NCBI RefSeq assembly: GCF_044704955.1
Contig: NC_091991.1
Location: forward strand, 148,366,001 to 148,430,000
Source: Pristiophorus japonicus
Lineage: Eukaryota
DNA length: 64,000 bases
Direction of reading: 5' to 3'
Shown here: positions 9,828 through 64,000 of the stretch, in pieces
Position numbering within the stretch: the stretch's first letter is position 1
How the letters are laid out: each line of letters opens with the position of its first letter
The notes under the pieces: model-generated
Told to the model about the DNA's origin: nothing
The model's input: only the letters and a program-made list of their open reading frames with translations
Databases searched by the model: none
Made by a program: the position numbers and the translations under genes

Positions 9828-12482
9828 TGTCATGCATCTTACATTATTATATATAACTGTATCCTAACATGCTATACATGACTGCAGTAAGATGACCTGT
9901 AACTACCAGTATGCCATATTCCAGCGCAACATGGAGAGTCTGCTCAAGTCCATCCTGGGGACGGTTGTATTTCAAGACGACATACTTATCACGGGCAGGG
10001 ACACTGACTCCCATCTCCGTAATTTGGAGGAAGTACTAAAGCGGTTGAATCGGGTAGGCCTGCGAGTCAAGAAATCCAAGTGACTGTTTCTCGCACCCGA
10101 GGTTGAATTTTTGGGCAGAAGGATTGCCGCTGATGGAATTCGCCCAACAGAGTCCAAAACAGAAGCAATTCGTCTGGCGCCCAGGCCCCGGAATGTCTCA
10201 GAACTGCGCGCCTTTCTCGGGCTACTCAATTACTTTGGGAACTTTATGCAGAACTTAAGCACACTGCTGGAGCCTCTCCATGTGCTACTCAGGAAGGGGT
10301 GCGATTGGTTTTGGGGGGACGCCCAGGAACGCACCTTGAATAAGGCACGCAACCTTCTGTGTTCCAACAGTGTTTTGACTTTCTTTGACCCAGGTACAAA
10401 GCTAGTTCTCACATGCGATGCGTCAGCGTATGGGGTCGGGTTGTTTTGCAACATGTCAATAGTGCGGGCAAATTACAACCCATAGCTTATGTCTCCAGGT
10501 CACGGAATGGTAGAGAAGGAGGCGCTCGCGTGCGTGTATGGTGTCAAAAAGATGCACCAATACCTTTTCGGGGCCAAGTTCGCGTTAGAAACCGACCACA
10601 AGCCCCTCATGTCCCTCCTATCCTAGAGCAAGGCAATAAACGCCAACGCCTCAGCGCGAATTCAATGGTGGGCATTCATGCTGGTGTCCTACGACTATAC
10701 CATAAGGCACAGACCAGGCACAGACAACTGTGCCGACGCGCTCAGCAGGCTACCCCTGGCGACCACGGAAGGGTCTGACGAACAGGACTGTGAGATAGTC
10801 ATGGCAATCAATGCCTTTGAGTCGACAGGTTCGCCCATGACGGCTCGCCAAATCAGAGCCTGGACGGCCAGTGACCCCACGTTATCCTTAGTCAAATTAT
10901 GTGTCTTAACTGGTGACTGGGCAGAGGCTCGCGATGCCTGCCCCGAGGAATTAAAACCCTTTCACAGGCGCATGCATGATCTATCACTACAAGCAGACTG
11001 CCTGATGTGGGGCAGCCGAGTAGTCATGCCTCTGCGAGGCAGAGAGGCATTTGTCCGGGAGCTCCACCGCGAGCACCCGGGGATCGTTCTCATGAAGGCC
11101 ATAGCCAGATCCCACGTCTGGTGGCCTGGTATTGACGCGGACTTGGAGCTCTGCGTCCGAAGGTGCACCATTTGTGCCCAACTCAGCAATGCCCCCAGGG
11201 AGGCTCCACTGAGCCCCTGGCCCTGGCCTACCAAACCGTGGTCGCGGGTGCACGTAGACTATGTGGGCCCATTCATGGGCAAAATGTTCCTCGTAGTTGT
11301 AGATGCATTTTCAAAGTGGATCAAATGCACCATTTTAAACTCGAGCACAACCTCCACCACTGTGGAGAGCCTCGCAACCATGTTTGCAACGCACGGAATC
11401 CCTGACATATTGGTCAGTGACAATGGTCCGTGCTTCACCAGCGCAGAATTCCAAAACTTTATAACTGACCACGGCATAAATCACGTTAAGACGGCACCGT
11501 TCAAGCCGGCCTCCAACGGCCAGGCGGAGGGAGCAGTGCAAATCATTAAACAAGGCATGCTTAAAATCCAAGGTCCCACGCTGCAGGGTCGCCTGTCGCG
11601 ACTGCTGCTGGCATACAGATCTCGTCTGCACTCACTGACTGGGATCCCCCCCACGCAACTGTTGATGAAAAGGACTTTAAAAACAAGGCTCTCATTAATC
11701 CTCCCAGACATGCACAAAATCGTTGAGGCAAAGCGCCATAAGCTGACTGAGTACCATGACAGAAATTTGAGGGGGAGATGGAATGAGATAGGGGACAAAG
11801 TGTTTGTACTAAACTATGGCAGGGGTCCCAAATGGCTTGCAGGGACAGCAACAGGCAAGGAAGGAAACAGGCTACTGGTAGTACAAATGGACAATGGCAA
11901 AGCCTGCCGGAGGCATGTAGACAAAGTTAAAAGCAGATTTACCAACCACACTGCGGAACCAGAGGCAGACTACAATGTGGAACTCGCACCACACCTGGTG
12001 GACAGACAGAGGGAACAACCTGAGGAAAGGGCAATCCCAACAGACAGCCCAGGCGAGTCAACAACAATCACACCAATCGAAACAGACAGCCCAGGCGAGA
12101 TACCAGCAACCACACCCAAAGAAAAATAGACACCAAGGCAAACAACTGAACCACAACTCAGACGCTCCACGCGAGAGTGTAGACCACCTGAGAGACTGAA
12201 CCTATAAAGACAATAAGACCTTGGGGGAGGGTGATGTCATGTAGCTTACATTATTATATATAACTGTATCCTAACATGTTATACATGACTGTAATAAGAT
12301 ATGACTTGTAACCACTAGTATACCTTATCACCAGGGGTACACTTGCAAGAGACAGGTATATAAGGACAGGTCTCAGGCAAGTGCAGCATTCCAGAGCTGT
12401 GAAATAAAGGTGCAGGTCCAGAGTGACCTTGACTTCACTACATGCCTCGTGTGAGTCTGTACTGAGGGAACAGGACTTTACA
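9828..12482 (+). mobile_element. Gypsy/Ty3 LTR retrotransposon, internally deleted
   Basis: 5-bp TSD ATCTG; truncated 5' LTR 9828-9912 fused directly to RT; PPT GGGGGAGGGTGA; 3' LTR 12235-12482 (TG...CA). Confidence 0.93.
9913..12129 (+). pseudogene. Gypsy pol remnant: RT C-terminal half, RNase H, integrase
   Basis: VFQDD, LRAFLGLLNY, CDASAYGVG, TDHKP, HxxH..CxxC zinc finger, VHVDY/VSDNG/NGQAE DDE triad; stops and frameshifts upstream of the 483-aa ORF at 10678-12129. Confidence 0.93.
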
Positions 12483-21328: not shown

Positions 21329-22345
21329 TCAATTGCCTCGCTGCCTCCTCCCTCGCCTCCTCATCCTTCTCCTCATCTTCTTCTGTCTCGTCCTCCTCCT
21401 GAGGAGGTCCCGTAACCCTGGAGGCAAGGGCTGCACCCTCATGATGGCCAAGTTGTGGAGCATGCAGCAGTTCACCACAAAATGGTACACCCCCTCTGGC
21501 GAGTGCTGGAGGGCTCCTCCCGAGTGGTCAAGGCATGTTCCTGGTGGCAGCATGGCTCTCATTATATGAGTGCTGGCAGGAGTGTTGGGGTTGTGGAGGG
21601 GAGTCATGAGCCAGGTGGAGAGCAGGTAGCCCTTGTCTCCAAGCAGCCACCTGCGAGCTTGACGTGGTGGCTGGAAGAGTCCTGGCACACCGGTCTGGCC
21701 CAGGATAATAGCATCGTGGCTGCTGCCAGGAGAGCGAGCATTGACATTAAGGATTCGCTGTCTGTGATCAGACACCAACTGCACATCAAGTGAGTGGTAG
21801 CCTTTGTGGTTGCAGAAGATCTTGGGATTGTTATGCAGTGTCTGCGAAGCCACGTGTGTGCGGTCAATGGTATCCTACACCATGGGGAAGCCTGCTATCC
21901 TGGCAAAGCCACATACATACTTGTCCTGCTTCTCTTTGGTGATCGGGAAGCCAACGTAGTCTCTTCTTCTTCTGAGAGCAGCGATGGATGGCAAACTGTG
22001 AGATGTTAGCTATGCCTCCTGCTGCAGACTAGAAGGATCTGCTGGCGAAGAAATTGAGGGCCACGGAGACCTGGCCTGCCACTGGGAGCAATGTAGTCGC
22101 CATGTTCTCAGGTTGTAGGTCTGGTTACAGGAGGTGGCAGAGTTCTGTGACCACCTCCTTGGTGAAGCGAAGCCTTCTAATACAGTGCTCCCTATTTAGG
22201 AGAAGTGCTCTCAGAATACACTCGGAGGGAACGGCCTCCTGTTGATGGTCCTCCTCCCCCCGCTGTGCACATGTTCCCATCTTTCTCGCTGCCTCCGCTC
22301 CCTCTGCCGTAGATTCTGGAGGGCAAGGTCGCATGTCAGTACAGC
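21329..22345 (-). pseudogene. HARBI1-like DDE transposase remnant
   Basis: CIRRLRFTKEVVTELC, AGFP.V..IDRTHVA, NHKGYHSLDVQLV, GSSHDA, LLGDKGY, CCMLHNLA. Confidence 0.9.
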
Positions 22346-31118: not shown

Positions 31119-31647
31119 AGTTATTATAAAGCATGCAATAAAAACAGTTGATCTGTCAATTGAATGCATCTGACCTAGTATAAATATATTCTTACACAAT
31201 GTAGGCACTTACGACATTTCTTTTGAACGTTACAAGGTTTGTTCATTTGTCCTAAAAGCATTTCAAACTCTAGAAATGTCAGTTCTCTTTCCTCTTGCCC
31301 ACCCCCACCCCCTTCCCATCCACCCCCTGCCCCCAGCTGGGTCTAGCCAGCGACTGTGCACCATCAATTTTTACAGCAGGTGGGCTCGGGCCCTCAGTCG
31401 GAAATTTGAGAGCCTGTGTGTGCAGCTCTTACAAACTGACGCTGGGCATTGCATTGCGTTCAGGCTCAGCAGAAGCAGGGCATCGACGTGCAAGGAACTG
31501 TCTTCCGAAGGGAGCATGCTAAAATCTGGCCTTTTAAATGACAACACTTTGTCATGTGGATATAGTTTTCATCACACAGATTTGAAAGTTGTCACCATTA
31601 AAAGGGCAAAGCAGCTAATTCAAAGCAATCACAACTTCTCCTCTTAA

Positions 31648-32120
31648 TGTCAGCTGTGGCTCAGTGGGTAGCACTCTTGCTTCTGAGTCAGAAGGTTATA
31701 GGTTCAAGGCCCACATCAAGCACTTGAACACACAATCTATGCTGACACGTCAGTGCAGTGCTGAAGTGAGTGCTGCAGTGTCAGAGGTGCCATCTTTCGA
31801 ATGAGACATTAAACCGAGGCTCCGACTGCCCTCTCAGGTGGATGTAAAAGATCCCATGGGACTGTTTGAAGAAGAGCAGGGGTATTCTCTCTGGTGTCCT
31901 GGCCAATATTTATCCCTCAACCAACATCACTAAAACGAATGATCTGGCCTTTAACTCATTGCTGTTTGTGGGAAATTGAAGTGCGCAAATTGGCAGCCGT
32001 GTTCCCTACATTACAACAGTGTCTACACTCCAAAAGTACTTCATTGGCTGTAAAGTGCTTTGTGCCGTCCAGAGATGGTGAAAGGTGCTAAATAAATGCA
32101 AGTCATTTTCCTTCGTTCTT
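31648..32120 (+). mobile_element. SacSINE1-like DeuSINE, full length
   Basis: A box GTGGCTCAGTGG, B box GGTTCAAGGCC, body, tail. Confidence 0.9.
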
Positions 32121-32699
32121 TCTTTCTTTGACTCTATACCTGGAACACTGCATTGTACCTCCAAGCACCACGAAAGAGGTGGAATTTGGAGAACTTAATT
32201 TTTTCACTTGATGATACTTTGGATTTTATTCCGATGTAATTTGTTAGCATTATTTTTGGTTGTTAAATGGGTGATGTTACACTGCCCATTTCTATTGCCC
32301 CTGTCCAATGAGATCAAGTCATCTTTCCCCCCCTTTATCTGTCTGGTCGGGTGGCTGGGATCCACTTTAGCTATTGAAATCCAGTTATGGTAGAATCGCG
32401 GATGATCGATTTCAAGTGTCTACTCTCCCTTGAACTAATGCCATGTTCACATTCCCACACGTTTGTGAGTTTATGATTCCATTTGTCCCTTAAGCATGGG
32501 GCCATTTATACCATGGAGTATAGCTGATAGTAAGAGACGCGTGTGTCTCCAGTCAGTTGCAATCCTGTAATATGAAAATACCTTTCGAGCAGTTAATGGG
32601 GCCCTTCTCAAACTCATGCAAGGGAAACAATTAGCTAGCCACAAACTAATTCCCTGTATATTTCAATAATAAAACATTGCTGAATATGAACAGCATATT

Positions 32700-34445: not shown

Positions 34446-35276
34446 GAGGTGAGCTGTGAATCGTTAGACATAAGAACATAAGAAATAAGAACATGAGTAG
34501 GCCATATGGTCCCTCAAGCCTGCTCCGCCATTCAATAAGATCATGGCTGATCCGACCATGGACTCAGATCCACTTCCCCGCCCGCTCCCCATAACTCCTT
34601 ATCCCCCTATCGTTTAAGAAACTGTCTATTTCTGTCTTAAATTTATTCAATGTCTCAGCTTCCACAGCTCTCCGAGGCAGTGAATTCCACAGATTTACAA
34701 CCCTCTGAGAGAAGAAATTCCTCCTCATCTCTGTTTTAAATGGGCAGCCCCTTATTCTAAGATCATGCCCTTTCGTTCTCATCTCCCTCATCAGTGGAAA
34801 CATCCTCTCTGCATCCATCTTGTCAAGCCCCCTCATAATCTTATACGGTTCAATAAGATCATCTCTCATTCTTCTGAATTTCAATGAGTAGAGGCCCAAC
34901 CTACTCAACCTTTCCTCATAAGTCAACCCCCTCATCCCCAGAATCAACCTAGTGAACCTTCGCTGAACTGCCTCCAAAGCAAGTATATCCTTTCATAAAT
35001 ATGGAAACTGTCATGTATCCTACATAGCTATTGTTGGTACTATCACAAGGTGTGCCACCAGAGGGCACAGCAGTGGGAGACTTGCAGGTTACCTGTACAG
35101 GTGTGCCTGGCCTAGTATAAAAGGCAGGCCACCAGCTGTAATCCTCACTCTGGAGTTAACAAATAAAGGACTAAGGTCACTACAGTTCAAGTACAACACA
35201 TTGCCTCGTGGAGTCATTATTAGAGCATCCAAGGACACAACAATTAGCGACGAGATTATGAACTTTCACGCAAAAA

Positions 35277-37488: not shown

Positions 37489-38656
37489 ACAACAGCCCCT
37501 CAGGGAGCAGCAGTGACCCAGGGCGCAAAGAAAGGACAGGGAGGTCACAGGCATCTGTGAACCTGCCCGACGCTAGGAACCACGGCAACAGCCCCAAGAG
37601 CAGGTAACTTGAGCCAACGGGGTTCCCACTGCCAGCACTGGGCACCGCGCCGCCATCAAAATGCAGGACACCATCCAGCAGCTCTGGAGCTAGTTTGTCC
37701 TTACGCATCGGTCACCGCATCGATAATGTATCTCACCAGTCTAACGTACTGGTCTCACAACGGAACCACAAATGTAATGCAAACTTGTTTTTCTGAACTT
37801 GAATGTGTATGAATGCAATAAGCCTCCAGCATAATCTATATGTGGGGGGGTGGGGAGAATGGAGTGGTCAGGGACACACACAAACAGCAACCACCAGCAC
37901 TCTACTGCACCAACCATTCACCCAAGATTGAAATAACCTGCCAAGGGTCAACCAAATAGAGCCCAGAGCACAGTCAATGCAGAGGCGATTTGCACTAAAG
38001 GCTTTGGGGAGAGTGATGTCATGTATCCTACATGGCTACTGTTGGTACTATCATAAGGTTTGCCACCAGAGGGAACAGCAGTGGGAGACTTGTAGGTTAC
38101 CAGTACAGGTGTGCCTGGCCTAGTATAAAAGGCAGGCCACCAGGTGTAATCCTCACTGTAGAGTTAACAAATAAAGTACTAAGGTCACTACAGTTCAAGT
38201 ACAACACATTGTCTCGTGGAGTCATTATTAGAGCATGCAAGGACACAACAGAAACCAAAACTGCACGCAGTATTCCAGATGTGGCCTCACCAATACCTTG
38301 TATAGCTGTAGCAAGACTTCCCTGCTCCTATACTTTATCCCCTTTGCAATAAAGGCCAAGATACTATCCTTTTGTGTTTCATGCACAAGTACCCCCAGGT
38401 CCCACTGTACTGTGGCACTTTGCAATCTCTCTCCATTTAAATAATAACTTGCTCTTTGATTTTTTTCTGCCAAAGTGCATGACCTCACACTTTCCAACAG
38501 TATACTCCATCTGCCAAATTTTTGCCCACTCATTTAGCCTGTCTATGTCATTTTGCAGATTGTTTGTGTCCTCCTCACACATTGCTTTTCCTCCCATCTT
38601 TATATCATCAGAAAACTTGGCTACGTTACACTCAGTCCCTTCTTCCAAGTCGTTAA

Positions 38657-42855: not shown

Positions 42856-43354
42856 TTCCTTTTCTCTTTTAGTTACTGACTGATCTGTTAGGCACTTCCA
42901 GCATTTTGATTTACTCTTAGTCACATGAAGACTCATATCAGTGAATCAAAACATCCTGGAACAATTTCTGCATTGCACCAAGTGCACTATGAAACCTCGG
43001 TATCTCAGGAAAATCAGTCTTAACATGCATGCCAATATATATATCCAATCACCTTATCACATCTCTCCAAAATATCTCATATTGCTTCACATAGAATGAA
43101 TTATAAAACTGGAGGGAATGATGAATGAAAAGCCGATTTCAAAAACATTTGGAAACATTAAGAATAACAAAACATGTATGTACATTTGCCAAGCGGGTGA
43201 AGGATTGCCTAAATGTTGTGCATGTTGTCTATGAAATACAGGACCAAGGTGCGAGTGAACTGCAGTTGGCATTTATTGTAATGCCAGGTACCTGAAGAAT
43301 ACCAAGTGTCAGTACACTTACCTTGGGCAACCTTCCCGAGTCCAGAAAATGTCT

Positions 43355-46057
43355 TAGAAACATAGAAACATAGAAAATAGGTGCAGGAGTAGGCCATGCG
43401 GCCCTTCGAGCCTGCACCACCATTCAATAAGATATGACTGATCATTCACCTCAGTACCCCTTTCCTGCTTTCTCTCCATACCCCTTGATCCCTTTAGCCG
43501 TAAGGGCTATATCTAACTCTCTCTTGAATATATCCAATGAACTGGCATCAACAACTCTCTGCCGTAGGGAATTCCACAGGTTAACAACTCACTGAGTGAA
43601 GAAGTTTCTCCTCATCTCAGTCCCTTATCCTTCGACTATGTCCCCTGGTTCTGGACTTCCCCAATATCGGAAATATTTTTCCTGCATCTAACCTGTCCAG
43701 TCCCGTCAGAATTTTATATATTTCTATGAGATCCCCTCTCATCCTTCTAAACTCCAGTGAATAGAGGCCCAGTCGATCCAGTCTCTCCTCATATGTCAGT
43801 CCTGCCATCCCGGGAATCAGTCTGGTGAACCTTGGCTGCACTCCCTCAATAGCAACAACGTCCTTCCTCAGATTAGGAGACCAAAACTGAACACAATATT
43901 CCAGGTGAGGCCTCATTATGGCCCTGTACAACTGCAGTAAGCTCTCCCTGCTCTTATACTCAAATCCCCTAGCTATGAAGGCCAACATACCATTTGCCTT
44001 CTTCACCGCCTGCTGTACCTGCATGCCAACTTTCAATGACTGATGTACCATGACACCCAGATCTCGTTGCACCTCCCCTTTCCCTAATCTGTTGCCATTC
44101 AGATAATATTCTGCCTTCGTGTTTTTGCCACCAAAGTGGATAACCTCACATTTATTCACATTATGCTGCATCTGCCATATGTTTGCCTACTCACCTAACC
44201 TGTCCAAGTCACCCTGCAGCCTCTTAGCATCCTCCTCACAGCTCACACTGCCACCCAGCTTAGTGTCATCTGCAAACTTGGAGATATTACACTCAATTCC
44301 TTCATCTAAATCATTAATGTATATTGTAAATAGCTGGGGTCCCAGCACTGAGCCCTGCGGAACCCCACTAGTCACTGCCTGCCATTCTGAAAAGGACCCG
44401 TTTATCCCGACTCTCTGCTTCCTGCCTGCCAAACAGTTCTCTATCCACGTCAGTACATTATCCCCATTACATGTGCTTTTATTTTTCACACTAATCTCTT
44501 GTGTGGGACCTTGTCAAAAGCCTTTTGAAAGTCCAAATACACCACATCCACTGGTTCTCCCTTGTCCCACTCTACCAGTTACATCCTCAAAAAATTCTAG
44601 AGGATATGTTAAGCATGATTTCCCTTTCATACATCCATGCTGAATTGGACCGATCCTGTCACTGCTTTCCAAATGCACTGCTATTTTATCTTTAATAATT
44701 GATTTCAAAATTTTCCCCACTACTGATGTCAGGCTAACGGGTCTATAATTCCCCGTTTTCTCTCTCCCTTCTTTCTTAAAAAGTGGTGTTACATTAGCTA
44801 CCCTCCAGTCCATAGGAACTGATCCAGAGTCGATAGACTGTTGGAAAATGATCATCAATGCATCCACTATTTCTAGGGCCACTTCCTTAAATACTCTGGG
44901 ATGCAGACTATCAACCCCGGAGATTTATCGGACTTCAATCCCATCAATTTCCTTAACACAATTTCCCGCCTAATAAGGATTTCCTTCAGTTCCTCCTTCT
45001 CACTAGACCCTCGGTCCCTTAGTATTTCCGGAAGGTTATTTGTGTCTTCCTTTGTGAAGACAGAATCAAAGTATTTGTTTAACTGTTCCGCCATTTCTTT
45101 GTTCCCCATTATAAATTCACCTGAATCTGATGCAAGGGACCTATGTTTATCTTCACTAATCTTTTTCTCTTCACATATCTATAGAAGCTTTTGCAGTCAG
45201 TTGTTATGTTCCCAGCAAGCTTCCTCTCATACTGTATTTTCCCCCTCCTAATTAAACCCTTTGTCCTCCTCTGCTGTATTCTAAAATTCTCCCAGTCCTC
45301 AGGTTTGCTGCTTTTTCTGGCCAATTTATATGCCTCTTCCTTGGATTGAACACTATCCTTAATTTCCCTTGTTAGCCACAGTTGAGCCACCTTCCCGTTT
45401 TATTTTTACTCCAGACAGGGATGTACAATTGTTGGAGTTCATCCATGTGATCTTTAAATGTTTGCCATTGCCTATCCACCGTCAACCCTTTAAGTATCAC
45501 TCGCCAGTCTATTCTAGTCAATTCACGTCTCATATCATCGAAGTTACCTTTCCTTAAGCTCAGGACCCTCGTCTCTGAATTAACTGTGTCACTCTTCATC
45601 GTAATGAAGAATTCTACCATATTATGGTCACTCTTCCCCAAGGGGCTTCACACAACAAGATTGCTAATTAGTCCTTTCTCATTACACATCATCCAGTCTA
45701 GGATGGCCAGCCCTCTAGTTGGTTCCTCGAAATATTGGTCTCGAAAACCATCCCTGATACACTCCAGGAAACCCTCCTCCACCGCATTGCTACCAGTTTG
45801 GTTAGCCCAATCAATATGTAGATTAAAGTCGCCCATGATAACTGCTGTACCTTTATTGTATGCATCCCTAATTTCTTGTTTGATGCTGTCCCTAACCTCA
45901 CTACTACTGTTTGGTGGTCTAGCGTTTTCTGCCCTTTGGTATTCCGTAGCTCCACCCATGTAGATTCCACATCATCCAAGCTAATGTCCTTCCTTACTAT
46001 TGTGATAATTTCCTCTTTAACCAGCAACGCCACCCCACCTCCTTTTTCTTTCTGTCT
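43355..46057 (-). mobile_element. CR1 LINE ORF2 (APE C-terminal part plus RT) to 3' tail
   Basis: [44 protein letters not shown], (CATAGAAA)n tail. Confidence 0.95.
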
Positions 46058-50163: not shown

Positions 50164-50236
50164 GGATTCTGACGAAGGGTCATGGACCCGAAACATTAAC
50201 CTTACCTTCCTCTCCCCACAGCTGACACCTGATCTG
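50164..50236 (+). ncRNA. Minimal hammerhead-ribozyme core in a Penelope-like remnant
   Basis: CTGACGA (50169-50175), stem GGGTC/GACCC, GAAAC (50190-50194). Confidence 0.6.
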
Positions 50237-50612
50237 AAAGAAAAAAAGAAAGACTTGCATTTATATCGCGCCTTTAACAATCACCAGACGTCTCAAAGCG
50301 CCAATGATGTACTTTTTAGACTGTAGTCACTGTTGTAATATAGGAAATGCAGCAGGCAATTTGTGCACAGCTAGCTCCCACAAACAGCAATGTGATAATG
50401 ACCAGATGATCTGTTTTTGTTATGTTGATTGAGAGATAAATATTGGCCAGCACATCAGGGATAACTCTCCGGCTCTTCTTCGAAATAGTGTCATGGGATC
50501 TTTTACAACCACCTGAGAGAGCAGACAGGACCTCAGTTTAATGGCTCCTCCGAAAGACGGCACCTATGACAGTGCAGCACTTTCTCAGCACTGCACTGGA
50601 GTGTCAGCCTAG
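50237..50612 (-). mobile_element. SacSINE1-like DeuSINE lacking head
   Basis: Reverse complement of body and tail. Confidence 0.88.
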
Positions 50613-50682
50613 ACTTGCTTAGTGTCTCCGGCGGTTTCTGTACTTATTATCAATTGGAGGCCAATTCTTGTTAGTCGGTTGG

Positions 50683-50931
50683 AAATAGGAGGTGGGTGGG
50701 GTGGCTTGACCCATCCACCTCCACGGAGGTGTGTGGGGGGCCTGACCCATCCACCTCCATGGTACGAACCTGGTATTGCAGTACTTCCAGGAACGGTGCA
50801 GTGGCTCTCGGCCTTTTGGCTAAGAGCATTGGCGCAGTGATCCTTGATGTGTGCAAGGTGACCTCTGGTGTTTGTAATTTGACAAAGAATTGAAAAGATT
50901 GGCAACGAAAAATTTAATTTAAAAAAAAAAA
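50683..50931 (+). mobile_element. Poly(A) retroposon containing permuted U2 snRNA fragments
   Basis: 17-bp TSD TCTTGTTAGTCGGTTGG; A11 tail; U2 3' stem-loop IV at 50768-50800 followed by U2 5' stem-loop I at 50806-50825. Confidence 0.85.
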
Positions 50932-51000
50932 TCTTGTTAGTCGGTTGGTGGTGAATTGGATTATAACATTGTCCTGTTGCAAAACCCTTTTCACAAGACT

Positions 51001-51726
51001 GGCCTGGAATTTCCTGGTACGCATCAATGTAACTATGATGTAAGGGCTGAGTTGCACCTTTTCTTTCCACTAGGAAAGTTCGTACGTAACTGTTTTGCGC
51101 CGGTTTTACGCAGAAACATTGCTACATGCAAATTTCCTCAATTATTTGTGGCCTCCTGAATTAGGTCCCTCAGACCCTGCTTAGCTTATTAACATAGCTC
51201 CGCCTCCCCATGCAGAAGACCAGAGTTTCTTGCATTTGCACCAGTTCTGAACAGTTTACTTCAAAAATTTTTAGGTGCAGCAAAGACACTATTTCGAGCA
51301 TTTTATCGCGATTGTTTAGCAATTTTTTAATTTTCCCTTACTGAGACACGCGCTGTCTTTTCTATACCTTTGAATGTTTTTTTATGGCATCAGAATCTGT
51401 AACATTAAAAAGAGAAAAGCTTCAACAATTACATTTTCTTAAACGTGCTTAATGTGCACAAATGATAATTTGATGGATTCAAACTTTAATCTTCATGACA
51501 TCAGTAAGATAAAGAAGGGCTTAAAGAAGGAAGCTGGCGTGTGTTCTGCATTTTCCTCGGGGCCAATCGATTCCGCTGATTTCCACTTGCTTTACACCAG
51601 TTTTTACGCTCTAGCATGTGCTTAAGAGATTCTGAGGAAATTTCGGCGTAAGTTGCCAATGGCAAAATCGGCATTAAAAAAGGGCGGAAATTTCGGCGCT
51701 AGGTACGATCCAGGAAATTCTGGCCC
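51001..51726. mobile_element. PIF/Harbinger-type MITE (726 bp)
   Basis: TIRs GGCCTGGAATTTCCTGG / CCAGGAAATTCTGGCCC; flanks ACT/ACA. Confidence 0.75.
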
Positions 51727-56721: not shown

Positions 56722-59620
56722 GGTATGGGTGGAGCTACCGAATACCAAAGGGCAGAAAACGCTAGCGGGAGTTGGGTACAGACCACTAAGCAGTAGTAGT
56801 GAGGTTGGGGACAGCATCAAACAAGAAATTAGGGATGCGTGCAATAAAGGTACAGCAGTTATCTGGGTGACTTTAATCTACATATTGATTGGGCTAACCA
56901 AACTGGTAGCAATGCGGTGGAGGAGGATTTCCTGGAGTGTATTCGGGATGGTTTTCTAGACCAATATTTCGAGGAACCAACTAGAGGGCTGGTCATCCTA
57001 GGCTGGGTGATGTGTAACGAGAAAGGACTAATTAGCAATCTTGTTGTGTGAGACCCCTTGGGGAAGAGTGACCATAATATGGTAGAATTCTTTATTAAGG
57101 TGGAGAGTGACACAGTTAATTCAGAGACGAGGGTCCTGAGCTTAAGGAAAGTTAACTTCAATGGTACGAGAGGTGAATTGGCTAGAATAGACTGGCGAGT
57201 GATACTTAAAGGGTTGACGGTGTATAGGCAATGGCAAACATTTAAAGATCACATGGATGAACTCCAACAATTGTACATCCCTGTCTGGAGTAAAAATGAA
57301 ACAGGGAAGGTGGCTCAACCGTGGCTAACAAGGGAAATTAGGGATAGTGTTAAATCCAAAGAAGAGGCATATAAATTGGCCAGAAAAAACAGCAAACCTG
57401 AGGACTGGGAGAATTTTAGAATACAGCAGAGGAGGACAAAGGGTTTAATTAGGAGGGGGAAAATACAGTATGAGAGGAAGCTTGCTGGGAACATAACAAC
57501 TGACTGCAAAAGCTTCTATAGATATGTGAAGAGAAAAAGATTAGTGAAAACAAACATAGGTCCCTTGTGAGAAGGAGGAACTGAAGGAAATCCTTATTAG
57601 GCGGGAAATTGTGTTAGGGAAATTGATGGGATTGAAGGCCGATGAATCCCCGGGGCCTGATAGTCTGCATCCCAGAGTACTTAAGGAAGTAACCCTCGAA
57701 ATAATGGATGCATTGGTGATCATTTTCCAACAGTCAATCGACTCTTTTTAAGAAAGGAGGGAGAGAGAAAATGGGGATTTATAGACTGGTTAGCCTGACA
57801 TCAGTAATGGGGAAAATGTTGGAATCAATGATTAAAGATGAAATAGCAGCACATTTGGAAAGCAGTGACGGGATCAGTCCAAGTCAGCATGGATTTATGA
57901 AAGGGAAATCCTGCTTGACAAATCTTCTAGAATTTTTTGAGGATGTAACTGGTAGAGTGGACAAGGGAGACCTAGTGGATGTGGTGTATTTGGACTTTCA
58001 AAAGGCTTTTGACAAGGTCCCATACAAGAGATTGGTGTGCAAAATTAAAGCACATGGTATTGGGGGTAATATACTGATGTGGATAGGGAATTGGTTGGCA
58101 GACAGGAAGTAGAGAGTCGGGATAAACAGGTCTTTTTCAGAATGGCAGGCAGTGACTATGGACTGGAGGGTAGCTAATGTAACAACACTTTTTAAGAAAG
58201 AAGGGAGAGAGAAAATGGGGAATTATAGACCCATTAGCCTGACATCAGTAGTGAGGAAAATGTTGGAATCAATTATTAAAGATGAAATAGCAGCGCATTT
58301 GGAAAGCAGTGACAGGATCGGTCCAAGTCAACATGGATTTATGAAAGGGAAATCATGTTTAACAAATCCTCTAGAATTTTTTGAGGATGTAACTGGTAGA
58401 GTGGATAAGGGAGAACCAGTGGATGTGTGTATTTGGACTTTCAAAAGGCTTTTGACAAGGTCTCACAAAAGAGATTAGTGTGCAAAATTAAAGCACATGG
58501 TATGGGGATAATGTACTGACATGGATAGAGAACTGGTTGGCAGGCAGGAAGCCGAGAGTCGGGATAAACGAGTCCTTTTCAGAATGACAGGCAGTGACTA
58601 GTGGGGTGCCGCAGGGCTCAGTGCTGGGACCCCAACTATTTACAATATACATTAATGATTTAGATGAAGGAATTGAGTGTATTATCTCCAAGTTTGCAGA
58701 TGACACTAAGCTGGGTGGCAGTGTGAGCTGTGAGGAGGACCCTAAAAGGCTGCAGGAGGACTTGGACAGGTTAGGTGAGTTGGCAAACGCATGGCAGATG
58801 TAGCATAATGTGGATAAATGTGAGGTTATCCATTTTGGTGGCAAAAACATGAAGGCAGAATATTATCTGAATGGCGGCAGATTAAGAAAAGGGGAGATGC
58901 AACGAGACCTGGGTGTCATGGTACATCAGTCATTGAAAGTTGGCATGCAGGCACAGCACGCAGTGAAGAAGGCAAATGGTATGTTGGCCTTCATAGCTTG
59001 GGGATTTGAGTATAGGAGCAGGGAGGTCTTACTGCAGTTGTACAGGGCCTTGGTGAGGCCTCACTTAGAATATTGTGTTCAGTTTTGGTCTCCTAATCTG
59101 AGGAAGGATGTTCTTGCTATTAAGGAAGTGCAGCGAAGGTTCACCAGACTGATTCCTGGGATGGCAGGATTGACATATGAGGAGAGACTGGATCGACTGG
59201 GCCTGTATTCACTGGAGTTTAGAAGGATGACAGGGGATCTCTTAGAAACATTTGACGGGACTGGACAGGTTAGATGCAGGAAGAATGTTCCCGATGTTGG
59301 GGAAGTCCAGAACCAGGGGACATAGTCTAAGGATAAGGGGTAAGCCATTTAGGACTGAGATGAGGAGAAACCTCTTCATTCAGAGAGTTGTTAACCTGTG
59401 GAATTCCCTACTGCAGAGAGTTGTTGATGCCAGTTCATCGGACATATTCAAGAGGGAGTTAGATATGGCCCTTACGGCTAAAGGGATCAAGGAGTATGGA
59501 GAGAAAGCAGGAAAGGGGTACTGAGGTGAATGATCAGCCATGATCTTATTGAATGGTGGTGCAGGCTCAAAGGACCGAATGGCCTACTCCTCCGCCTATT
59601 TTCTATGTTTCTATGTTTCT
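56722..59620 (+). mobile_element. 5'-truncated CR1 with deletions and an internal ~440-bp duplication
   Basis: APE C-terminal part, YRxxSLT..QHGF..KAFDKV block present twice, KFADDTKL, (TTCTATGT)n tail. Confidence 0.95.
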
Positions 59621-59953
59621 AAATAACCCTGGATGTTGAGTTCCCAGCCTTGGTCACCCTGGAACCATGTCTCCATGATCCCAATTATATCATATTCCTT
59701 AATAGCTGCCTGCACAGTTAATTCATCCACCTTATTACGAATACTCCTCGCATTGAGGCACAGAGCCTTCAGTGTTGTCTTCTTAACACACTTTGTCCCT
59801 TGAGAATTTTGCTGTAATGTGGCCCTTTTTGATTTTTGCCTTGGGTTTCTTTGCTCTCCACTTTTACTTTTCTTCTTTCTGTCTTTTGCTTCAGCCCCCA
59901 TTTTACTTCCCTCTGTCTCCCTGCATAGGTTCCCATCCCCCTGACATATTAGT

Positions 59954-61077: not shown

Positions 61078-61597
61078 CTGCTGGGCCATTAGTAGGCCTC
61101 TCACCTCTCACCGCTCACTGCTCCGCCTCCCGACACTGCTGGGCCATTAGTAGGCCTCTCACCTCTCACCGCTCACTGCTCCGCCTCCCGACACTGCTGG
61201 GCCATTAGTAGGCCTCTCACCTCTCACCGCTCACTGCTCCACCTCCCGACACTGCTGGGCCATTAGTAGGCCTCTCACCTCTCACCGCTCACTGCTCCGC
61301 CTCCCGACACTGCTGGGCCATTAGTAGGCCTCTCACCTCTCACCGCTCACTGCTCCACCTCCCGACACTGCTGGGCCATTAGTAGGCCTCTCACCTCTCA
61401 CCGCTCGCTGCTCGCTGCTCCGCCTCCCGGCACTGCTGGGCCATTAATAGGCCTCTCACCTCTCACCGCTCACTGCTCCACCTCCCGACACTGCTGGGCC
61501 ATTAGTAGGCCTCTCACCTCTCGCCGCTCGCTGCTCCGCCTCCCGGCACTGCTGGGCCATTAATAGGCCTCTCACCACTCGCTGCTCGGCCTCCCGT
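61078..61597. repeat. 58-bp tandem array (~9 copies) at CR1 5' end
   Basis: CTGCTGGGCCATTAGTAGGCCTCTCACCTCTCACCGCTCACTGCTCCGCCTCCCGACA at 61078, 61136, 61194, 61252, 61310, 61368... Confidence 0.95.
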
Positions 61598-61795: not shown

Positions 61796-64000
61796 TGTCA
61801 TGTATTCAACCAGCATTGTAACCCATGTATAATCTGACCTTAGTTGTACACTGTGAGAACACTGACCACTAGGTGGTGAACTTGTGGGAGACACTCCTAA
61901 CCTAGACCTTCAGATATAAAAGGGGAATCTCCACCCACTTCCATCACTTGAGTGCTATGAAATAAAGGACAGGTCACAGACTGACCTTCTCTCAAGCATG
62001 GGCTTCGTGTGCACTTATACTGTATAGTAAGGACGTATAAATGGCGACGAGAAACTGGGATTTAAACCTCGCGAGCATGGCCACTAGCAGAACAGATGAG
62101 AGGTACTGTGTTAAGGAATGGTTGGGACAGAGATTCAACATTGTTAAAGCAGCACACAGTTCTCCAGGCAGACAAGGGCAGTCGGGCATGCCCCAACATG
62201 TAGTCAAACCCAGAGGGGGAGTTCGACAGAGACAATGGCAAGCTGAACAGCAATTCACGCCATTGCAAGGGACAATGCGGCCAGTAATGGGGCCATCAAC
62301 ACCTGTTAATGGCGCACTCAAGGACAATAACAGGGGCAGTCGGGGATGATCGACTGGCAAGGGACCTTTTGTTTCAAATAGCAGCTCATGCTGGAGGCGT
62401 GGAGGCACACACTCAGCCGGAGTTTGCAGAGGTGAGCAAAATACCTGCAGAAATTGCAGAAATGAACGCTGGGGGAAATCGCTGGAAGCTGAAGTTCAGC
62501 GAGTTCATGTGGAGCACGTATACAGTTCATACACCAGGACGCCACCGATAATGATGAAAGTGCTCCTCAATGGCATCCCAGTATCAATGCAGTTAGACAC
62601 GGGGGCCAGCCAGTCCCTGATGGGTATCAAACAGTTCGAAAAGTTGTGGGCGTCCAAGGCCAGGAGGCCAAAATTATCGCTGATTGACGCACAGCTACGG
62701 ACTTACACAAAGCAGATCATTCCGGTGCTAGGCAGTGCCATGTTAGTCGTGACCCACAAAGATTCGGAGAACAGGTTGCCACTCTGGATTGTCCCAGGGG
62801 ACGGTCCCGCACTACTGGGGAGGAGTTGGCTTGCTGTCATGAACTGGAAATGGGGCGATGTCAATGCAATTTCCTCTGTGGAGCGAGTATCATGCTCACA
62901 GATCCTGGACAAATTTGACTCATTATTTCAACCCGGCATTGGCACTTTCATGGAGGCCAAGATAATGATTCACATAAACCCGGACGCCAGGCCAGTACAC
63001 CACAAGGCCAGAGTGGTGCCGTACGTGATGCGGGAAAAGATAGAAGGCGAATTGGACCGCCTACTGAGGGAAGGCATCATCTCGCCAGTCAAATTCAGTG
63101 ACTGGGCGAGCCCGATTGTGCCGGTACTCAAGGCGGATGGGTTGGTCAGGATATGTGGTGATTACAAGGCCACCATCAATCGGGTGTCACTCCAAGACCA
63201 GTACCCGCTACCGAGAGCGGAGGACCTCTTTGCGACGCAATCCGGTGGCAAACTTTTTTCAAAATTGGACCTGACCTCAGCTTACATGACCCAGGAGCTG
63301 GCGAGTGAGTCGAAGAAGCTGACCACCATCACGACACACAAGGGGTTGTTTGAGTACAACAGATGTCCGTTCGGGATTCGCTCGGCCGCCGCGATCTTCC
63401 AACAAAATATGGAAAGCCTCCTCAAGTCGATTCCAGGGACAGTGGTTTTTCAGGATGACATCCTCATTATCTGGAGGAGGTGCTATGAAGACTGGACCGG
63501 GTAAGGCTGCGACTGAAAAAGGTAAAGTGCGTCTTCCTAGTTCCAGAGGTAGAATTCCTGGGGATGAGCGTAGCAGGAGACGGGATCAGCCCTACTGCGT
63601 CCAAGACGGAAGCGATCCAGAGAGCACCCAGATCCCGTAACACGACGGAGCTGCGTTCGTTCCTGGGGCTCCTGAACTATTTTGGTAACTTTCTTCCCAA
63701 ATTGAGCACACTGCTAGAGCCGCTACATGTGCTCCTACGCAAAGGTCGCGAATGGGTCTGGGGGGACAGCCAGGAAAGGGCTTTTAATAGAGCATGCAAT
63801 TTGTTATGTTCCAACAATCTGTTAACGCTATATGACCCATGTAAGAAACTTGTGTTAACGTGCAATGCGTCGTTCTATGGTGTCGGGTGTGTTTTGCAGC
63901 ATGTCAATGCCAAGGGTCAGTTACAGCCGGTAGCCTATGTCTCCAGATGTCTGTCCCAGGCAGAAAGGGGCTACAGGATGGTAGAAAAGGAGGCACTCGC
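61796..64000 (+). mobile_element. Gypsy/Ty3 LTR retrotransposon (runs off the window end)
   Basis: 5' LTR 61796-62040 (TATAAAA, AATAAA); PBS TGGCGACGAG; gag largely deleted; pol follows. Confidence 0.93.
62509..64000 (+). pseudogene. Gypsy pol remnant: protease, RT, RNase H start
   Basis: MQLDTG, WASPIVPV.K.DG.VRICGDYK, FSKLDL, PFG, VFQDD, LRSFLGLLNY; deletion/frameshift after the RT motif. Confidence 0.93.

What the first reader, a model, noticed from the sequence alone, without database searches (positions are those of the whole stretch)
50683..50931. Retroposon built from circularly permuted U2 snRNA
Seen: exact 17-bp TSD, A11 tail; duplicated (G)CYTGACCCATCCACCTCCA, then ACCTGGTATTGCAGTACTTCCAGGAACGGTGCA, a short linker, TCTCGGCCTTTTGGCTAAGA, and ~95 bp of non-U2 tail. 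Known from recall of vertebrate U2: these are the stem-loop III 3' arm, stem-loop IV (U2B''/U2A' binding loop AUUGCAGU; 32/33 match) and 5' stem-loop I (20/20, U6-pairing region). The 3' end precedes the 5' end, and the branch-point sequence and Sm site are absent, so this is not an ordinary U2 pseudogene and not the U2-head layout of crocodilian SINEU. Inference: 3' end of an L1/Tx1-mobilised family that co-opted spliceosomal RNA modules, perhaps to recruit snRNP proteins.
Basis: partly seen in the sequence, partly recalled or inferred. Interest (0 to 1): 0.82.

Follow-up and report, generated by a model that had tools for sequence, protein, structure and literature searches.

The report
Truncated U2-snRNA-derived jumping element
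This is a real, fairly young jumping-DNA insertion built from pieces of the U2 splicing RNA; its back-to-front look most likely comes from two U2 pieces joined head-to-tail and then cut short at the front, a design described in crocodilians and here seen in what looks like a shark-type genome.

Summary
The retroposon is real: 249 bp, exact 17-bp target duplication, A11 tail. Against a printed U2 reference (by eye) it holds two copies of the whole stem-loop III (first copy 32/43 columns, remodelled into a 13-bp unbroken stem), stem-loop IV (33/33), U2 nt 1-29 (25/29; nt 7-26 20/20) and a 92-nt unrelated tail. The last 4 nt of the left duplication equal U2 103-106, the end of the Sm site: a typical 5'-truncation microhomology. 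So the copy is probably cut inside the Sm site, and the 'circular permutation' is better read as a head-to-tail U2-U2 fusion missing its front. That is how crocodilian SINEU-1 subfamilies grew (PMC4494074). Uneven divergence implies a pre-existing master element, but copy number is untested: no second copy in 64 kb, none in the prokaryotic or protein collections. The host looks chondrichthyan (inferred only), where my paper searches found no SINEU. Verdict: probable new SINEU-like family, likely Tx1-mobilised; snRNP-protein recruitment is plausible, not shown.

The parts
50666..50682 (+). Left target-site duplication (17 bp)
   Evidence: Exact repeat of 50932-50948
50679..50682 (+). 4-nt 5' junction microhomology: equals U2 nt 103-106 (end of Sm site); marks a 5' truncation
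   Evidence: By-eye comparison with printed U2; chance 1/256; reading as truncation is inference
50683..50725 (+). Remodelled U2 stem-loop III, copy 1 (U2 107-147); 13-bp unbroken stem 50688-50700/50710-50722, 9-nt loop
   Evidence: 32/43 columns to printed U2 (by eye); pair table; most stable of 9138 sampled 36-mers in the window
50725..50759 (+). Remodelled stem-loop III, copy 2 (tandem duplicate, 3 differences from copy 1)
   Evidence: TRF period 36, 2.0 copies, 91%
50760..50767 (+). Altered 5' strand of the lower stem of stem-loop IV; still forms 4 bp with 50796-50799
   Evidence: Fold of 50762-50800; Rfam alignment
50768..50800 (+). U2 nt 153-185: stem-loop IV hairpin (U2B''/U2A' site, U-U closing pair kept) and 3' strand; ends 2 nt short of the printed U2 3' end
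   Evidence: 33/33 human, 32/33 mouse reference; Rfam model 148-185; loop features
50801..50828 (+). U2 nt 1-29 head: stem-loop I, 20/20 over nt 7-26, 25/29 overall; flanking changes extend the stem to 5+4 bp
   Evidence: Rfam model 7-26; printed U2; folds
50829..50920 (+). 92-nt non-U2 tail, source unknown; candidate recognition site for the partner LINE
   Evidence: No snRNA match in Rfam; no homologue in the window; role inferred
50921..50931 (+). Poly(A) tail, 11 A
50932..50948 (+). Right target-site duplication (17 bp)

Best explanation
A 5'-truncated copy of a non-autonomous, SINEU-like retroposon. [quoted passage not shown] The copy has no promoter and is inert. The most likely role of the U2 parts is to make a compact, stable, snRNP-like nuclear RNA (U2B''/U2A' on stem-loop IV) that the partner enzyme can use, not to act in splicing. 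Shown: anatomy, TSD, matches, folds. Inferred: truncation, jump, family status, partner, protein binding.
For: TSD and poly(A). Junction falls 2 nt from the printed U2 3' end and at about U2 nt 1. Microhomology chance 1/256. The stem-loop III changes pre-date this insertion: 11/43 differences against 0/33 in stem-loop IV (Fisher p 0.002) and 17/17 identical TSDs (p about 4e-5 if the 26% were decay in place). All 7 substitutions and 1 insertion in the stem arms of copy 1 keep or make a pair (by eye). Kojima 2015 describes short U2 heads, repeated 5' addition of U1/U2 sequence by template switch, partial duplication, internal oligo-T, no internal promoter, frequent 5' truncation and Tx1 mobilisation. 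No A+B box pair here. The target is not a TT/AAAA L1-type site (consensus recalled).
Against: Only one copy seen: 0 further copies in 64 kb; none in GTDB contigs, plasmids or phages or by translation; none of these sets is the right genome, so family status is unproven. The reference is mammalian, not the host's U2, so part of the stem-loop III difference may be host-specific. The 'nt 1-6' reading rests on 3 of 5 letters. In the full-length minimum-energy fold stem-loop IV is opened by the tail (forcing it costs 6.6 kcal/mol); it forms only in local or partial-length folds. No L1/Tx1 fragment was recognised in the window (77 of 105 long ORFs scanned). Hairpin perfection can come from fold-back repair without selection.
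Confidence: 0.65

Rival explanations
1. The insert is the truncated 3' end of an autonomous Tx1/L1-type LINE whose 3' UTR captured U2 modules.
For: TSD, poly(A) and 5' truncation fit any LINE 3' end. Some crocodilian Tx1 families carry U1/U2 sequence. Keno is tied to U2 genes.
Against: The U1/U2 parts reported on Tx1 families are at their 5' ends, not 3'. A nt-1 U2 head followed by a short tail is the layout described for SINEU-1J. No coding remnant within the TSDs: + strand frames are stopped and the open minus-strand frame has no Pfam match.
Confidence: 0.15
2. A one-off chimeric retrocopy made by several template switches (LINE tail, U2 5' end, U2 3' half) in one event.
For: One copy only in 64 kb. 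snRNA chimeras, including triple ones, are known.
Against: A one-off made from cellular U2 should match U2 evenly; here stem-loop III is 26% changed and duplicated while stem-loop IV and the TSDs are perfect. Such chimeras are mostly U6/U6atac.
Confidence: 0.1
3. A true circular permutation: a circularised U2 RNA was reverse-transcribed across its 3'-5' join, and the element is near full length without Sm site.
For: The order 3' half then 5' end is real, and the join is close to the natural ends.
Against: The copy stops with a 4-nt microhomology to the Sm site end, so the template went further 5'. U2 is capped, which hinders end ligation (own knowledge). End-to-end addition onto SINEU 5' ends is documented and needs no circle. 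I read only the listing of a search on this theme, and no title there reports it.
Confidence: 0.05

Closest known systems
SINEU-1 (esp. SINEU-1J, -1F, -1E/-1G) of crocodilians, Kojima 2015, PMC4494074
   Same: Short U2-derived head on an unrelated tail with poly(A); further U2 sequence added 5'; partial duplications; internal T run; no internal promoter; TSDs; 5' truncation.
   Different: Host appears non-crocodilian (inferred); this copy looks young (TSD 17/17) whereas SINEU-1 is old (83-92% to consensus); no Mariner-N4 target evident. Fig. 1 and the supplement could not be seen, so which U2 parts SINEU-1F carries, and tail homology, are unchecked.
SINEU-3 and SINEU-2 (same paper)
   Same: Built almost wholly of snRNA fragments; SINEU-3 keeps a 32-bp 5' piece and an 83-bp further piece of U2 with a short foreign tail; SINEU-2 shows recent end additions and head replacement.
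   Different: SINEU-3 keeps its U2 pieces in gene order (internal deletion); here the 3' half precedes a second 5' end, and stem-loop III is remodelled and doubled.
Keno / Tx1-Mar (Tx1 clade) and Utopia non-LTR retrotransposons
   Same: Intimate link with U2 genes; Keno inserts 37 nt into U2, which would give transcripts a short U2 5' head; Tx1-Mar is the proposed SINEU partner.
   Different: No ORF here; this copy is not inside a U2 gene; partner not identified.
snRNA processed pseudogenes and U6/L1-type chimeras (PMC4476161)
   Same: Template switching joins snRNA to retroposed RNA within one TSD pair.
   Different: Uneven, structure-preserving divergence points to a replicating master, not a one-off.

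Membership tests
SINEU | 5' region derived from U1 or U2 snRNA | tested here: met
   All preserved sequence 5' of the tail is U2-derived; the true 5' end is missing
SINEU | Short, non-coding, 3' poly(A), TSD | tested here: met
   249 bp, A11, 17-bp TSD; no protein homologue
SINEU | No internal Pol III promoter; internal oligo-T | tested here: met
   One 1-mismatch A-box-like site with no downstream B box, at background frequency; T4 in the stem-loop I loop. Applies to the preserved part only
SINEU | Many copies sharing one structure (master-derived) | not testable with these tools
   No eukaryotic genome collection; 0 other copies in the window; indirect support only
SINEU | Mobilised by Tx1 (Tx1-Mar), shared target preference | tested here: inconclusive
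   Flanks are not repeated within the window; weak 8/11 likeness of the target to U2 45-55, p about 0.02 post hoc
SINEU-1/-2/-3 (named crocodilian families) | Sequence homology of the tail to their consensus; crocodilian host | not testable with these tools
   Repbase and the paper's figure and supplement unavailable; host inferred chondrichthyan, database checks uninformative
U2 snRNA gene / ordinary pseudogene (RF00004) | Colinear U2 reaching the Rfam gathering score | tested here: not met
   0 gathering hits; pieces out of order, 19.5 and 9.6 bits against 46
Autonomous Tx1/Keno LINE | ORF2 with endonuclease and RT; insertion in a U2 gene | tested here: not met
   No such ORF between the TSDs; flanks are not U2. 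A truncated 3' end cannot be excluded

The most novel reading that the evidence does not exclude
A cartilaginous-fish SINE family, independent of crocodilian SINEU, whose RNA is a selected snRNP mimic: it keeps the Sm site and an intact stem-loop IV to load Sm and U2B''/U2A' proteins, doubles and stiffens stem-loop III as a spacer, and has disabled U6 pairing so that it is stable and nuclear without poisoning splicing; its master is read from a captured U2 promoter. This would show what snRNA parts do for a retroposon, as SRP9/14 binding does for Alu (analogy recalled).
Probability: 0.25. Interest if true: 0.75.

Novelty: new variant of a known kind. Interest (0 to 1): 0.48.

Why it matters
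SINEU was reported only from crocodilians, with mostly old copies, and how it is transcribed and why it keeps snRNA pieces were left open (PMC4494074). A younger family in another vertebrate lineage would show that snRNA-headed SINEs arise repeatedly beside Tx1/Keno elements, and its sharp contrast between a perfect stem-loop IV and remodelled stem-loops I and III gives a direct test of selection for snRNP-protein binding. If the family is already in Repbase/Dfam or the copy is unique, it is a curiosity.

Tried and rejected
Other copies: window BLASTN, best non-self, non-TSD hit E 0.18; tail alignment to the window no better than 10 shuffles; GTDB exact 22-mer 0 hits and translated scan 0 of 359 candidate stretches confirmed; plasmids and phages no match; translated-frame protein searches 0 hits; HMMER over 1.84 billion proteins gave 3 hits, all internally repetitive proteins at 32-45% identity, rejected. 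Host identity: Atlas gave only broad eukaryote taxa; 0 of 10 ORFs found exactly; SINE tail motif in no paper. A U4-like start of the tail (13/15 by eye) rejected: no Rfam support, about 0.3 expected by chance. tRNA-like head in the tail rejected: 233 of 500 shuffles score as well; 0 tRNAs in the window. Rfam Prion_pknot and miRNA hits are below gathering and reflect the G/C-rich hairpins. The 170-aa minus-strand ORF 50609-51121 has no Pfam match. Utopia supplements held no stem-loop IV text (0 of 10 files). The bacterial promoter scan is irrelevant here. Supplements of PMC4494074 and PMC5499810 could not be read and bear on the SINEU and host comparisons.

Full report
Observation. The insert 50683-50931 is bounded by an exact 17-bp repeat, 50666-50682 and 50932-50948, and ends in 11 A. 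Of 17 exact repeats of 14 bp or more spaced 60-1500 bp apart (the 61.0-61.7 kb minisatellite left out of the print-out) it is the only one preceded by an A run, and 30 of 30 Markov shuffles held no such 17-mer. Rfam finds nothing at gathering level in the window but places two local U2 matches here: 50806-50825 on model 7-26 and 50762-50799 on model 148-185. A search on 50675-50805 did not align stem-loop III to the U2 model, so that assignment rests on the comparison below.

Anatomy against a real U2. A preprint prints human and mouse U2, U4 and U6 (bioRxiv 10.1101/2021.08.01.454689; passages). I compared by eye; no shark U2 was available. 50768-50800 equals nt 153-185 at 33/33 (human) and 32/33 (mouse). 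50801-50828 aligns to nt 1-29 at 25/29, with 20/20 over nt 7-26. 50683-50725 aligns to nt 107-147, the whole of stem-loop III, at 32/43 columns; TRF shows it as a 36-nt unit in 2.0 copies, and each unit folds alone (-27.9 and -22.8 kcal/mol). Copy 1 is a 13-bp unbroken stem, the most stable of 9138 sampled 36-mers; native stem-loop III is bulged, and all 7 substitutions and 1 insertion in the arms keep or create a pair. The two copies can also pair with each other, which the global fold prefers (z -5.8 against 200 shuffles). The remaining 92 nt match no snRNA and nothing else in the window.

The 5' end is a truncation. The insert starts at U2 nt 107, just after the Sm site (nt 99-105; position from own knowledge), and the last four bases of the left TSD equal U2 103-106. 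Chance is 1/256. Short microhomology at 5' junctions is typical of truncated non-LTR insertions (own knowledge).

The junction. The first U2 piece ends 2 nt before the printed 3' end and the second starts at about nt 1. That is an end-to-end join. Kojima 2015 (PMC4494074; parts 1-4 of 5 of the text read; figure and supplement not seen) describes SINEU-1J as a short U2 head on an unrelated tail, other subfamilies as arising by 5' addition of U1 or U2 sequence and partial duplication, 26 SINEU-2 copies with U1-like 5' extensions, frequent 5' truncation, no internal promoter and mobilisation by Keno-related Tx1-Mar. A U2-plus-core fusion cut at the front gives exactly '3' half before 5' end'. No circular template is needed.

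Family or one-off. No second copy could be found, but no searchable set holds the right genome. Indirect evidence favours a master: stem-loop III differs at 11/43 and stem-loop IV at 0/33 (Fisher p 0.002), and the TSDs are identical, which has p about 4e-5 if the 26% had accumulated in place. The insertion is probably younger than the neighbouring SINE family (p 0.009 for 17/17 at 76% pairwise identity). Caveat: the reference is mammalian; human and mouse differ at 2 of 41 positions in this stretch. From my own recall, from no call and unverified, a repeat with this tail occurs dispersed in shark assemblies with longer snRNA-like 5' ends; treat that only as a prediction.

What the parts may do. 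Stem-loop IV keeps the U-U closing pair, G7 and U8 that are described as conserved in vertebrates, with one change at loop position 11 shared with the printed human reference; binding of this protein family needs the stem (PMC4114683; 12 of 16 passages). Exact identity begins at the hairpin, while the adjacent lower-stem strand is altered but still pairs. That fits selection for U2B''/U2A' binding. Against it: in the full-length minimum-energy fold the tail opens stem-loop IV, at 6.6 kcal/mol advantage, though it forms in folds ending at 50800 or 50828 and in local folding; and recent replacement by fresh U2 sequence, as reported for SINEU-2 heads, would also give identity. In the 5' piece the changes at nt 3, 6 and 27 fall on positions complementary to the printed U6 (by eye; helix roles from own knowledge) and extend the hairpin (pair probabilities 0.73-1.0), so a role in U6 pairing is unlikely. 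There is no A+B box pair, so the master needs an outside promoter.

Partner. The target does not begin with the A-rich L1 consensus (consensus recalled). It resembles U2 45-55 at 8/11, beside the Keno target printed in PMC6136364 (passages); post hoc p about 0.02, a lead only. Keno and Utopia share that site (PMC4640811, passages). No Tx1/L1 fragment was recognised among 77 of 105 long ORFs scanned; 11 hit Gypsy-, Harbinger- or RT/endonuclease-type domains (clade labels are my reading).

Host. Not confirmed. The window holds 14 hits, query included, of an old SINE with a tRNA-like head covering 6.6%, which I read as SacSINE1-like (Deu and L2-tail labels recalled). Callorhinchus has 218,294 such copies (PMC5499810, part 2 of 6) in 0.77-1 Gb (PMC5381603, passages), or 14-18 per 64 kb; crocodilian SINEs total about 15 Mb. 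A cartilaginous fish is the likely host.

Novelty. Kojima found no SINEU outside crocodilians. Searches (listings and abstract starts) and passages of PMC5786205, PMC4758252, PMC7245038 and PMC5381603 showed no snRNA-derived SINE in sharks; PMC4476161 (12 of 26 passages) covers one-off chimeras; PMC3544641 and bioRxiv 10.1101/2025.11.08.687349 (passages) added nothing. The library omits Repbase Reports, Dfam and most subscription papers, so an existing entry is not excluded.

Verdict. A real element that works like SINEU; membership of the class is likely, of the named crocodilian families untested and improbable. The striking 'circular permutation' is most likely a truncation effect. What remains of interest is a probable second lineage of snRNA-built SINEs with module-specific conservation. 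Best explanation 0.65; novelty: new variant of a known kind; interest 0.48.

Noticed in passing
window 50666-50682 (target site): Target resembles U2 nt 45-55 at 8/11, all three mismatches transitions, next to the Keno target; may hint at a Keno-related endonuclease (post hoc p about 0.02).
   Followed up: partly
window 31640-32130 and 13 other places, incl. 50236-50613 (minus strand, about 50 bp left of the TSD): Old tRNA-headed SINE family, 72-84% to the query copy, 6.6% of the window; resembles SacSINE1 and points to a cartilaginous fish.
   Followed up: partly
window 43354-45959 and 56725-59622: Two CR1-like LINE copies in opposite orientation, 92-94% alike; the second carries a ~444-bp internal duplication at 57741-58600.
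   Followed up: no
window 10084-12129 and 62350-63504: Gypsy-type LTR retrotransposon ORFs: RNase H/integrase (500 aa open) and protease/RT (384 aa open).
   Followed up: no
window 21329-21874 (minus strand): DDE_Tnp_4 (Harbinger-like) transposase fragment, E 2.7e-15.
   Followed up: no
window 61078-61587: 58-bp minisatellite, 8.7 copies, 93% matches.
   Followed up: no
window 50826-50840: Start of the tail looks like the U4 5' end (13/15) and like a Pol III A box; both within chance.
   Followed up: yes
window 35009-35242 and 38017-38250: 234-bp direct repeat, 94% alike, 3 kb apart, around a gag-like region; possibly LTRs or part of them.
   Followed up: no
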